Below are positions 41,901 through 44,900 of a DNA stretch of 64,000 nucleotides, in pieces. How positions within the stretch are numbered: the first letter of the stretch is position 1; each line of letters begins with the position of its first letter. Origin of the DNA: Escherichia coli (GTDB lineage Bacteria; Pseudomonadota; Gammaproteobacteria; Enterobacterales; Enterobacteriaceae); assembly GCF_003334315.1 (NCBI RefSeq), contig NZ_QOWR01000006.1; one strand, 5' to 3'. The position numbers were made by a program.

Positions 41901-44900
41901 AATTGCCCACTGAGGCGCAACACGGTTATAACCAGAAATCTCCCACATCTCAGGTAAATTCAGCGTCAAGGATCCATTTTGGGTTGCACCCATTGTGCCA
42001 TACGGTAAACCCATGCTACCCAAAATGTTGTTCAGATTTGGGTTAATGGAACTTTTGTAATCCCCTTCGAAGTCGATTTTAACTTCTGAACGATAGGTTA
42101 GGCCCCAACGGTTATCTTTATCCAGTTCATAAAGAATACCCGCGTTCCAGCCAAAGCCCCATTCGTCACCTTTCAGATGAGCAATTTGAGAGTCCGGGGT
42201 ATTAATACCATTGGTTAGTGAAGCGGGTACACCTTGGGCAATCAACTGTTGAGACAACAAAGGCCCCAGCGAACCGGCGTAACGCTCAATTTTCGCCTTA
42301 GCGTATACAGCATCAAAACCAAGACCAAAACTCCAGCTATTGTTAAGGCGGTAAGCTCCGCTAAGGTTAAGGTTTATTGTTTGAAGATCGGTTTTACCGC
42401 CATAGATACCAGCAGCGTAGTTATCATTAAACTCCGTGGCCAGACCATAGTTTGAGGTAATAGAAGCCCCCCAACCAAACTGATCGTTAATAGGTGCTAC
42501 GAAATGCAGGTTAGGCACCCACGCAGTTGGTGCAATATTATCTGCATCAGCACGCTGGCCCGTTAAATCGGAACGCCCAGAAATATCTACATCCGGGTCA
42601 ATATAAACCGCACCCGCAGAAAATGTCGGGCGGTCAAACATAGTAATCAATGCGGGGTTACGGCTGACGTTACCTGCATCATCGGCAATTGCGCCTTCCC
42701 CTGAATAAGCCCGGCCCAGGCCAGAGGAAGAAAATTCGTTTAACTGAAAGCCTGCCGACCAGGCCTGGGTGGAGATAAGTGCCACTGCGACTGCGAGAGC
42801 AGACTTTGTAAACAGGGTTTTCTGGCTCATGACCATAACCTCAATGATTTATTTTTATACAAACTATGTTACGTGCTGTAACAGGAGCGCGAAGTGTAGG
42901 GTCTGAGGTACATCTTAGAAATCAGACCAGTGGCGAGAGTATAGGTCGGACCAGCTGGAATGTTGCAAGTATGTTTCTATCTTTTTTCAAATATGATCTA
43001 AGAAACGCGATCCAGCTGGCAAAATTTGGAGGTGGCGCACTCATGGATTCGGGTGAATTTTGTTTTAGATCATTTTTAAGTGTGATTTCGGTCACTTATC
43101 CGATTTTGCAGAATTAACAACTGGAGCAGCACTTTCCGGAAGCGTAAAATATCCACAACGTTTATCTGGCACCTTGGGTGCACATACAGAGGAAATCAAC
43201 GATGAGTAAATGTAGTGCTGATGAAACCCCGGTTTGCTGCTGTATGGATGTTGGCACCATTATGGACAACTCCGACTGCACCGCGTCTTACAGCCGCGTG
43301 TTTGCAAACCGCGCAGAAGCAGAACAAACGCTGGCGGCGCTGACTGAGAAAGCCCGTAGCGTGGAATCTGAACCTTGCAAAATCACCCCGACTTTCACTG
43401 AAGAGTCTGACGGTGTGCGCCTGGATATCGATTTCACTTTTGCCTGCGAAGCTGAAATGCTGATTTTCCAGCTGGGTCTGCGTTAATTCCTCTCGGGTAC
43501 GTACGCCCCTGTCAGTTGCTGGCAGGGGCGTTTTCTTTTCTCTTCTTCTTTTCTCTCTGTGTCATAGCTCCCACTTTCCCTTTTCTCCACTTGGCTAAAT
43601 GTAAAAAAATGGTTAAGACTATGATCAGGTCAGACCACTTTATTTATTTTTTTACAGGGGAGTGTTATGGGTCAGGTTTTACCGCTGGTTACCCGCCAGG
43701 GCGATCGTATCGCCATTGTTAGCGGTTTACGTACGCCTTTTGCCCGTCAGGCGACGGCTTTTCATGGCATTCCCGCGGTTGATTTAGGGAAGATGGTGGT
43801 AGGCGAACTGCTGGCACGCAGCGAGATCCCCGCTGAAGTGATTGAACAACTGGTCTTTGGTCAGGTCGTACAAATGCCAGAAGCCCCCAACATTGCGCGT
43901 GAAATTGTTCTCGGTACGGGAATGAATGTGCATACCGATGCTTACAGCGTCAGCCGCGCTTGCGCTACCAGTTTCCAGGCAGTTGCAAACGTCGCAGAAA
44001 GCCTGATGGCGGGAACTATCCGAGCGGGGATTGCCGGTGGGGCAGATTCCTCTTCGGTATTGCCAATTGGCGTCAGTAAAAAACTGGCGCGCGTGCTGGT
44101 TGATGTCAACAAAGCTCGAACCATGAGCCAGCGACTGAAACTCTTCTCTCGCCTGCGTTTGCGCGACTTAATGCCCGTACCGCCTGCGGTAGCAGAATAT
44201 TCTACCGGCTTGCGGATGGGCGACACCGCAGAGCAAATGGCGAAAACCTACGGCATCACCCGAGAACAGCAAGATGCATTAGCGCACCGTTCGCATCAGC
44301 GTGCCGCTCAGGCATGGTCAGACGGAAAACTCAAAGAAGAGGTGATGACTGCCTTTATCCCTCCTTATAAACAACCGCTTGTCGAAGACAACAATATTCG
44401 CGGTAATTCCTCGCTTGCCGATTACGCAAAGCTGCGCCCGGCGTTTGATCGCAAACACGGAACGGTAACGGCGGCAAACAGTACGCCGCTGACCGATGGC
44501 GCGGCAGCGGTGATCCTGATGACTGAATCCCGGGCGAAAGAATTAGGGCTGGTGCCGCTGGGGTATCTGCGCAGCTACGCATTTACTGCGATTGATGTCT
44601 GGCAGGACATGTTGCTCGGTCCAGCCTGGTCAACACCGCTGGCGCTGGAGCGTGCCGGTTTGACGATGAGCGATCTGACATTGATCGATATGCACGAAGC
44701 CTTTGCAGCTCAGACGCTGGCGAATATTCAGTTGCTGGGTAGTGAACGTTTTGCTCGTGATGTACTGGGGCGTGCACATGCCACTGGCGAAGTGGACGAT
44801 AGCAAATTTAACGTGCTTGGCGGTTCGATTGCTTACGGACATCCCTTCGCGGCGACCGGCGCACGGATGATTACCCAGACATTGCATGAACTTCGCCGTC

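What the first reader, a model, noticed from the sequence alone, without database searches (positions are those of the whole stretch)
42837..43666. FadR operators on both sides of the small cysteine-rich gene yfcZ
A FadR box (AGCTGGTCCGACCTATACT on the bottom strand, 42938..42956) lies in the fadL promoter and another (ATCAGGTCAGACCACTT, 43623..43639) just upstream of fadI. yfcZ sits between the two beta-oxidation promoters and carries seven Cys including a CCC motif; its function is unknown to me. The arrangement suggests possible co-regulation with fatty-acid degradation or a redox or metal role.
Basis: partly seen in the sequence, partly recalled or inferred. Interest (0 to 1): 0.3.

Follow-up and report, generated by a model that had tools for sequence, protein, structure and literature searches.

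The report
Known FadR operators flanking orphan gene yfcZ
The two FadR boxes are real, but they are the already-characterised switches of the neighbouring fatty-acid genes fadL and fadIJ; the small cysteine-rich gene yfcZ between them looks like a self-contained gene of still unknown function whose one constant partner across species is fadL.

Summary
The window holds the E. coli core locus fadL(-) / yfcZ(+) / fadIJ(+). Both boxes exist: the first exactly where stated, the second one base to the right (43624..43640). Both are published FadR operators, conserved in about 70-80 Enterobacteriaceae species.

The operators overlap the fadL and fadI core promoters, not that of yfcZ. yfcZ has a conserved predicted -35/-10 (43122-27 / 43145-50), a 5' UTR palindrome and a strong terminator (43503..43531). 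The fadL operators lie about 209 and 233 bp upstream of the predicted yfcZ start, and the fadI operator lies behind the yfcZ terminator. Direct FadR control of yfcZ is therefore unlikely. Shared control through the conserved CRP site (43081..43096) is more likely.

YfcZ is a DUF406/PF04175 protein with seven Cys. Positions 12, 13, 14, 26, 59 and 82 are conserved in its clade, which fits an untested thiol or metal site.

New here: the divergent fadL-yfcZ pair persists in Pectobacterium, Xenorhabdus, Plesiomonas, Pasteurella and Haemophilus. The last two have no fadIJ at the locus.

The regulatory finding is ordinary and already known. The orphan protein is a modest lead.

The parts
41490..42830 (-). 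[quoted passage not shown] The open frame extends to 42836; RefSeq starts at MSQKT.
   Evidence: ORF list and RefSeq annotation of an identical E. coli genome.
42916..42932 (-). FadR operator site 2 of fadL (CACTGGTCTGATTTCTA), covering about -1 to +16 of fadL.
   Evidence: Consensus scan. It lies inside the EMSA probe fadL-FadR-site2 of PMC3460868. The core ATCAGACCAGTG is conserved in Enterobacteriaceae.
42940..42956 (-). FadR operator site 1 of fadL (AGCTGGTCCGACCTATA), about -25 to -9 of fadL.
   Evidence: The core TAGGTCNGACCAG was found in 76 of 81 spacers. PMC3460868 reports two FadR sites, and PMC10272880 prints both sequences.
42960..42977 (-). fadL -35 region (TTGCAA) overlapping a TGTTnn direct repeat of 11 bp that looks like an ArcA box.
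   Evidence: Conserved block. PMC3460868 places the ArcA site 5 bp from FadR site 1. Assigning these exact bases is my inference.
43081..43096 (+). CRP site TGTGATTTCGGTCACT, centred at 43088.5. That is -157.5 from the fadL start and about -69 from the predicted yfcZ start.
   Evidence: One mismatch to the consensus. Almost invariant across the 80 species loci. It lies inside the probe fadL-CRP-site1 that bound CRP-cAMP in PMC3460868, whose authors call it atypical and too far upstream for fadL.
43122..43150 (+). Predicted yfcZ sigma-70 promoter: -35 TGGAGC (43122-27), a 17-bp spacer and -10 TAAAAT (43145-50). The predicted start is near 43157.
   Evidence: GTAAAAT and ACTGGAG are conserved blocks separated by unconserved sequence. 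The distance to the CRP centre is 56.5 bp in 73 of 76 spacers. The start site was not mapped here.
43167..43182 (+). Palindrome GCACC-TTG-GGTGC in the yfcZ 5' UTR. It also reads as a sigma-54 -24/-12-like element, TGGCAC-N5-GTGCA.
   Evidence: Compensatory variants in other genera: GCACG-CTA-CGTGC and CGCGC-CAT-GCGCG. One mismatch to the sigma-54 consensus. It coincides with the RpoN gSELEX peak and gel shift in PMC8743547.
43202..43486 (+). yfcZ CDS, 94 aa, DUF406 / YfcZ-YiiS family, seven Cys.
   Evidence: Annotation. Pfam PF04175, E = 1.5e-36. TIGR00743, 157 bits against a cut-off of 71. AF2 model.
43503..43541 (+). Intrinsic terminator of yfcZ: a 13-bp stem with 9 G-C pairs, followed by a T-rich tract.
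   Evidence: Terminator scan. The hairpin folds at -23.9 kcal/mol. A crude search found comparable hairpins with T-runs in 44 of 70 related spacers.
43624..43640 (+). FadR operator of fadIJ (ATCAGGTCAGACCACTT). It overlaps the likely -10 TATGAT (43620-25) and the start of fadI transcription.
   Evidence: Present in 69 of 70 distinct spacers. The review PMC9329746 states that the fadIJ FadR site overlaps the transcription start.
43667..47121 (+). fadI (43667..44977) and fadJ (44977..47121): the second beta-oxidation thiolase and multifunctional enzyme operon.
   Evidence: ORF list and annotation.

Best explanation
The two boxes are the established operators through which the FadR dimer represses fadL (two adjacent sites over -25..+16) and fadIJ (one site over the -10/+1 region). 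Long-chain acyl-CoA releases FadR from them. yfcZ lies between these promoters as a self-contained one-gene unit. It has its own weak -35 and good -10 (TAAAAT), a structured 5' UTR and a strong intrinsic terminator. FadR bound at the fadL operators sits about 209 and 233 bp upstream of the predicted yfcZ start. FadR bound at fadI sits beyond the yfcZ terminator. FadR therefore most likely does not repress yfcZ directly (inferred). The conserved CRP site at 43081..43096 lies about 69 bp upstream of the predicted yfcZ start. It probably activates yfcZ, so yfcZ would share catabolite control with the fad genes (inferred). YfcZ is a soluble DUF406 protein: a beta-alpha-beta-beta-alpha core with a flexible N-terminal tail carrying the CCC run. 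From the strand topology, Cys26, Cys59 and Cys82 sit at one edge of the sheet next to that tail, which would give a thiol-rich ligand or metal site (inferred, not shown). Its evolutionarily constant partner is fadL, not fadIJ.
For: Identity of the locus: the stretch is 100% identical to many E. coli genomes and present in 5426 of 5426 complete genomes. The operators match the published probes and sites (PMC3460868; PMC10272880; PMC9329746). They are conserved. yfcZ promoter, UTR and terminator. yfcZ is handled as a separate transcript made from its own promoter in mRNA-decay studies (PMC8565310). The CRP site binds CRP-cAMP in vitro, and its authors judged it too far upstream for fadL. Protein family and fold: and PMC2860719. 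Cys conservation. fadL<->yfcZ adjacency holds in all 80 Enterobacteriaceae species loci. It also holds in Pectobacterium, Xenorhabdus, Plesiomonas, Pasteurella multocida and Haemophilus influenzae (HI_0400 next to the FadL homologue). In the last two there is no fadIJ in the 4-6 kb read on each side. The H. influenzae spacer has no FadR-like box.
Against: The yfcZ start site was predicted, not measured. A CRP centre at about -69 is between the canonical class I positions (-61.5 and -71.5). The whole 371-bp spacer has fixed geometry: FadR site 1 to the CRP centre is 140.5 bp in 76 of 76 spacers. The region may therefore work as one nucleoprotein unit in which FadR could still influence yfcZ. 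LldR, another GntR-family protein, was reported to bind the same boxes, and yfcZ mRNA fell in an lldR mutant (PMC10272880). No data on yfcZ expression in fadR mutants or with oleate were found. The cysteines are not universal in the family: YiiS-type members keep only three, and the NMR structures were solved as cofactor-free monomers in DTT.
Confidence: 0.7

Rival explanations
1. yfcZ is a true member of the FadR regulon. FadR bound at the two fadL operators also lowers yfcZ transcription from a distance, for example through a fixed-geometry complex with CRP, or indirectly through coupling of the divergent promoters. yfcZ would then be induced by long-chain fatty acids.
For: The spacer length and all inter-site distances are invariant in 73-76 of 76 spacers, although some stretches between the sites are not sequence-conserved. 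yfcZ and fadL mRNAs changed in parallel under nitrogen limitation and in an lldR mutant (PMC8743547; PMC10272880). The P. multocida spacer has a FadR-like box midway between the two genes.
Against: The operators are centred about 209 and 233 bp from the predicted yfcZ start. According to the review, FadR repression sites generally overlap the -10/+1 region. yfcZ is not listed among the FadR targets named in the review. The H. influenzae pair has no FadR box.
Confidence: 0.12
2. YfcZ works with FadL in handling exogenous long-chain fatty acids. It would be a cytoplasmic thiol-rich partner that binds a metal or an acyl group, and the fadL-yfcZ pair would be kept together by selection for that shared function.
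For: The divergent pair is conserved across Enterobacterales and Pasteurellales. That includes loci with no fadIJ, where the genes on the other side of yfcZ differ between H. influenzae and P. multocida. All FadL-linked orthologues keep Cys12, 14, 26, 59 and 82, and all but H. influenzae (CSC) also keep Cys13. The YiiS-type paralogue, which lacks Cys12, 13 and 59, is not next to a FadL gene.
Against: DUF406 is confined to some gammaproteobacteria (PMC2860719), and the family is small. By general knowledge FadL is far more widespread, so FadL does not generally need it. Some DUF406 genes have no FadL gene nearby. No phenotype or interaction is reported in the 15 papers that mention yfcZ. The pair could be held together simply by overlapping regulatory DNA.
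Confidence: 0.2
3. YfcZ has nothing to do with fatty acids. It would be an oxygen- or redox-related small protein that merely happens to sit next to fadL.
For: In E. coli O157, yfcZ rose about 3-fold together with anaerobic genes such as yfiD, hyp, nap and ackA (PMC2241611). The protein has a high Cys content and conserved Cys positions.
Against: The evidence is a single array study, and no FNR site was recognisable near the promoter. This reading does not explain why adjacency to fadL survives in distant genera while the other flank changes.
Confidence: 0.2

Closest known systems
FadR operators of the E. coli fad regulon (fadL sites 1 and 2; the fadIJ/yfcYX site)
   Same: The sequences match. 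The positions over the -10/+1 of fadL and fadI match. The paired fadL sites lie 7-8 bp apart, as published (PMC3460868, PMC9329746, PMC10272880).
   Different: Nothing differs.
DUF406 / PF04175 (YfcZ-YiiS family); solved members YiiS 2K3I, VPA0419 2JZ5 and VC_A0919 2KHD
   Different: The YfcZ clade carries the CCC run and Cys59, which YiiS lacks. It is also the clade that sits next to fadL. The family as a whole has no assigned function.
Conserved divergently transcribed gene pairs that share a regulatory spacer
   Same: fadL and yfcZ diverge from a spacer of fixed length with shared protein-binding sites, and the pair is kept across two orders.
   Different: By general knowledge, one member of such a pair is often a regulator of the other. 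YfcZ has no recognisable DNA-binding domain.

Membership tests
FadR operator | 17-bp imperfect palindrome matching aaCTGGTCnGACC(T/A)Gtt | tested here: met
   Against the 17-mer scan pattern, box 1 has 1 mismatch, box 2 has 2 and fadL site 2 has 3. The exact core is found in box 1.
FadR operator | Overlaps the -10/+1 region of the repressed promoter | tested here: met
   fadL start at 42931: 95 bp before the older fadL start codon, and 157.5 bp from the CRP centre. This puts the two fadL sites at -25..-9 and -1..+16. The fadI box overlaps the TATGAT at 43620-25 (sequence; review).
FadR operator | Binds FadR and is released by long-chain acyl-CoA | not testable with these tools
   Shown by others for both fadL sites by EMSA (PMC3460868). 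For fadIJ it is stated in the review.
FadR regulon (yfcZ as a member) | An operator placed where it can occlude the gene's own promoter | tested here: not met
   The operators are about 209 and 233 bp upstream of the predicted start, or downstream of the terminator.
FadR regulon (yfcZ as a member) | Expression that responds to fadR deletion or to oleate | not testable with these tools
   None of the 15 papers that mention yfcZ addresses this. An iModulon supplement held no entry.
DUF406 / PF04175 | Profile match above threshold over the full length | tested here: met
   Pfam E = 1.5e-36, residues 3-94. TIGR00743, 157 bits against a cut-off of 71.
DUF406 / PF04175 | Three-stranded sheet with two helices, as in 2K3I and 2JZ5 | tested here: met
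Cysteine-ligated metal or Fe-S protein | A conserved set of at least three or four Cys that can converge in space | tested here: inconclusive
   Six Cys positions are conserved in the YfcZ clade. By topology, three of them lie at one edge of the sheet, but the CCC tail is modelled with pLDDT below 50. The cysteines are not conserved in all family members.
Cysteine-ligated metal or Fe-S protein | Bound metal or cluster in the purified protein | not testable with these tools
   The NMR structures of relatives were solved as cofactor-free monomers in 10 mM DTT (PMC2860719).

The most novel reading that the evidence does not exclude
YfcZ is a dedicated cytoplasmic partner of the FadL fatty-acid channel. 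It would be a thiol-rich protein with a metal or acyl-thioester site. It would be kept next to fadL since before Enterobacterales and Pasteurellales split, and switched on by the CRP site that has so far been attributed to fadL.
Probability: 0.15. Interest if true: 0.6.

Novelty: already known. Interest (0 to 1): 0.22.

Why it matters
The regulatory observation adds nothing new to the well-studied fad regulon. Two by-products could matter to specialists.

First, Feng and Cronan described the CRP site as atypically far from fadL. It sits at a workable distance from the predicted yfcZ promoter, which may resolve that oddity.

Second, yfcZ is a core E. coli gene with no function. Its conserved pairing with fadL, even at loci that carry no fadIJ, gives a concrete and cheap hypothesis to test.

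Tried and rejected
- A locus search with the 30-sequence alignment failed because no stretch was conserved enough. The narrower alignment returned only the 80 closest genomes, all Enterobacteriaceae. Distant contexts therefore had to be sampled one protein at a time, and several representatives sat on contigs too short to be useful.
- A search for 'b2343' gave only irrelevant papers.
- The dRNA-seq start-site paper is not held in the library.
- The iModulon supplement had no yfcZ entry.
- No FadR ChIP-exo paper was found.
- The Cas9 off-target paper has no held supplement.
- Rfam gave only a chance-level Spot 42 hit over the yfcZ 3' end and terminator (20.8 bits against a gathering score of 80).
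- The predicted 5' UTR does not fold better than shuffled sequence (z = -0.88).
- The sigma-54-like match is not significant on sequence alone.
- I looked for an FNR site near the yfcZ promoter by eye and found nothing convincing.

Full report
**What is there.** Window 41490..47121 is the E. coli chromosomal locus fadL(-) / yfcZ(+) / fadI-fadJ(+). A 1.1-kb query around the finding is 100% identical to many E. coli genomes. It is present once or twice in all 5426 complete genomes searched. RefSeq annotates fadL, yfcZ ('YfcZ/YiiS family protein'), fadI and fadJ in that order.

**Checking the observation.**
- Box 1 (AGCTGGTCCGACCTATACT) is at 42938..42956 on the minus strand, exactly as stated.
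- Box 2 (ATCAGGTCAGACCACTT) is at 43624..43640, one base to the right of the stated position.
- Against a degenerate FadR 17-mer, only three places in 64 kb reach two mismatches or fewer, and two of them are these boxes. The exact core CTGGTCNGACC occurs once, in box 1.
- The same scan shows a weaker box at 42916..42932(-), seven bases from box 1.
- yfcZ (43202..43486) encodes 94 residues with Cys at 4, 12, 13, 14, 26, 59 and 82.

**These boxes are already known.**
- Feng and Cronan (PMC3460868) describe two FadR sites in the fadL promoter, 8 bp apart. Both bind FadR in gel shifts, and long-chain acyl-CoA releases it. Their site-2 probe is window 42905..42939.
- PMC10272880 prints both fadL sequences.
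- The review PMC9329746 lists fadL and fadIJ as directly repressed by FadR, through sites that overlap the transcription starts. It gives the consensus aaCTGGTCnGACC(T/A)Gtt.
- The fadL start lies 95 bp before the older fadL start codon, which places it at 42931. The two fadL sites then cover -25..-9 and -1..+16. This is consistent with the published CRP site being '157 bp upstream' (43088.5 - 157.5 = 42931).
- The fadI box overlaps a good -10 (TATGAT, 43620-25) and lies 32-43 bp before the fadI ATG in related genomes.

**Conservation.** I fetched the locus from 80 Enterobacteriaceae species. All 80 have fadL divergent from yfcZ. All have fadI-fadJ after yfcZ wherever the held sequence reaches that far. 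Aligning the spacers gives a clear footprint:
- FadR site 2.
- FadR site 1.
- The fadL -35 with an ArcA-like direct repeat.
- A block at 43004-25.
- An almost invariant CRP site with an AT-rich flank (43061-98).
- ACTGGAG (43120-26).
- GTAAAAT (43144-50).
- A palindrome in the 5' UTR.
- The ribosome-binding site.
- The fadI FadR box is present in 69 of 70 distinct yfcZ-fadI spacers.

**yfcZ as its own unit.**
- The conserved TAAAAT (43145-50) has TGGAGC 17 bp upstream (TGGAGA in most genera). Together they form a plausible sigma-70 promoter with a start near 43157. This is an inference; the start was not mapped.
- A 13-bp, G+C-rich hairpin with a T tract follows the stop codon (43503..43531). 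Its folding energy is -23.9 kcal/mol.
- Work on RppH-dependent decay treats yfcZ as a discrete transcript made from its native promoter (PMC8565310; PMC4227774).
- On this geometry the fadL operators are centred about 209 and 233 bp upstream of the yfcZ start. The fadI operator is about 90 bp beyond the yfcZ terminator.
- FadR repression sites generally overlap the -10/+1 region. Direct repression of yfcZ is therefore unlikely.

**The CRP site.** TGTGATTTCGGTCACT (43081..43096) lies inside the probe that bound CRP-cAMP in PMC3460868. [quoted passage not shown] It lies 56.5 bp before the yfcZ -10 in 73 of 76 spacers, about -69 from the predicted start. That is within class I range, although between the canonical positions. 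My reading is that this site serves yfcZ, alone or together with fadL. That would give yfcZ catabolite control in common with the fad genes without involving FadR.

A caveat applies. The distance from FadR site 1 to the CRP centre is also fixed, at 140.5 bp in 76 of 76 spacers. The spacer may therefore act as one architectural unit.

**The protein.**
- YfcZ matches Pfam DUF406 over its whole length and TIGR00743.
- The family is small: 108 representatives at 50% identity among 1.84 billion proteins.
- Relatives with solved NMR structures are YiiS (2K3I), VPA0419 (2JZ5) and VC_A0919 (2KHD).
- The structure paper reports monomers with a beta-alpha-beta-beta-alpha fold and sheet order A-C-B. The YiiS statistics cover only residues 29-100, and the disordered N-terminus of VPA0419 was truncated. 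It notes a conserved Glu, reports no function, and suggests weakly a resemblance to pterin-4a-carbinolamine dehydratase (PMC2860719).
- My AF2 model reproduces this. The core has pLDDT of about 90, and residues 1-22 fall below about 50.
- In the YfcZ clade, Cys12, 13, 14, 26, 59 and 82 are conserved. So are D16, G18, D22, N23, the S-E-P-C59 motif, F80 and E85. YiiS-type members keep only Cys14, 26 and 82.
- Strands A and B run parallel, with C antiparallel between them. Cys26 (just before A), Cys59 (just before B) and Cys82 (just after C) should therefore lie at the same edge of the sheet, next to the flexible CCC tail. This is compatible with a thiol-based metal, cluster or adduct site. It is an inference from topology only.

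**Who stays next to yfcZ.** Sampling more distant homologues one at a time gave the following:

| Organism or locus | FadL-family gene | Other context |
|---|---|---|
| Pectobacterium | divergent and adjacent | fadIJ downstream |
| Xenorhabdus | divergent and adjacent | fadIJ downstream |
| Plesiomonas | divergent and adjacent | a batD-like gene lies between yfcZ and fadIJ |
| Pasteurella multocida | divergent and adjacent | no fadIJ in the 4 kb read on each side |
| Haemophilus influenzae (a source names a close homologue HI_0400) | divergent and adjacent | no fadIJ in the 6 kb read on each side |
| Unidentified 4.6-Mb gammaproteobacterium | 1.7 kb away, with two tandem FadR-like boxes in front of it | ECF sigma/anti-sigma pair in between |
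| Two other homologues | none nearby | |
| YiiS-type paralogue | none nearby | |

- In the two Pasteurellaceae the genes on the far side of yfcZ differ from each other.
- The H. influenzae spacer has no FadR-like box. The P. multocida spacer has one, midway between the two genes.
- The constant association is therefore with fadL, not with beta-oxidation genes or with FadR boxes. I found no paper that makes this point, but the library is incomplete.

**Expression hints from the literature.**
- yfcZ and fadL mRNAs fell in parallel under nitrogen limitation, and RpoN holoenzyme bound the spacer (PMC8743547).
- Both mRNAs fell in an lldR mutant (PMC10272880).
- yfcZ rose with anaerobic genes in O157 (PMC2241611).
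- None of the 15 papers that mention yfcZ reports a function.

**Verdict.** The suggestion that they bracket yfcZ for co-regulation is not supported by the geometry. The cysteine-based idea is reasonable and untested. The conserved fadL-yfcZ pairing and the likely reassignment of the CRP site are the only new leads, and both are modest.

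Noticed in passing
window 43081..43096: The CRP site published as an 'atypical', too-distant fadL site (-157.5) lies about 69 bp upstream of the predicted yfcZ start. It is almost invariant across the 80 species loci and may really be the yfcZ CRP site.
   Followed up: partly
window 43167..43182: TGGCACCTTGGGTGCA in the yfcZ 5' UTR is one mismatch from the sigma-54 -24/-12 consensus. It coincides with a published RpoN gSELEX peak. The same bases form a palindrome with compensatory changes in other genera, so an RNA or DNA hairpin is an alternative reading.
   Followed up: partly
window 42831..43201: The fadL-yfcZ spacer keeps a fixed geometry across Enterobacteriaceae: FadR site 1 to CRP is 140.5 bp in 76 of 76 spacers, and CRP to the -10 is 56.5 bp in 73 of 76. 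This holds even though 43026-43060 and 43127-43141 are not sequence-conserved.
   Followed up: partly
L002, L005 and most other loci, compared with window 41490..42830: FadL is far more divergent than its neighbours. In Escherichia albertii and E. whittamii, FadL is 78% identical while YfcZ is 100% and FadI 97-98%. This suggests diversifying selection or allele exchange at this surface protein.
   Followed up: no
L087 5290..6885 and L093 4496..6238: A batD-like gene (PF13584) lies convergent and immediately downstream of the DUF406 gene, both in Plesiomonas and in an unidentified gammaproteobacterium. This hints at an older fadL-DUF406-bat neighbourhood.
   Followed up: no
window 40067..41125: yfdF is a very A+T-rich 352-aa ORF between mlaA and fadL. 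It is annotated only as 'protein YfdF', and its composition suggests acquired DNA.
   Followed up: no
protein P0183: A 4963-residue protein matches YfcZ residues 28-72 in 17 separate stretches. This is probably an Ala/Glu-rich helical repeat rather than true homology.
   Followed up: no
PMC9219993: A copper-evolution study lists a fixed mutation 'yfcZ/fadL A262E'. YfcZ has only 94 residues, so the change must be in FadL and says nothing about YfcZ and copper.
   Followed up: yes
window 43559..43574: TGTGTCATAGCTCCCA is a conserved CRP-like sequence about 65 bp upstream of the likely fadI start. It may be the fadIJ CRP site mentioned in the review.
   Followed up: no
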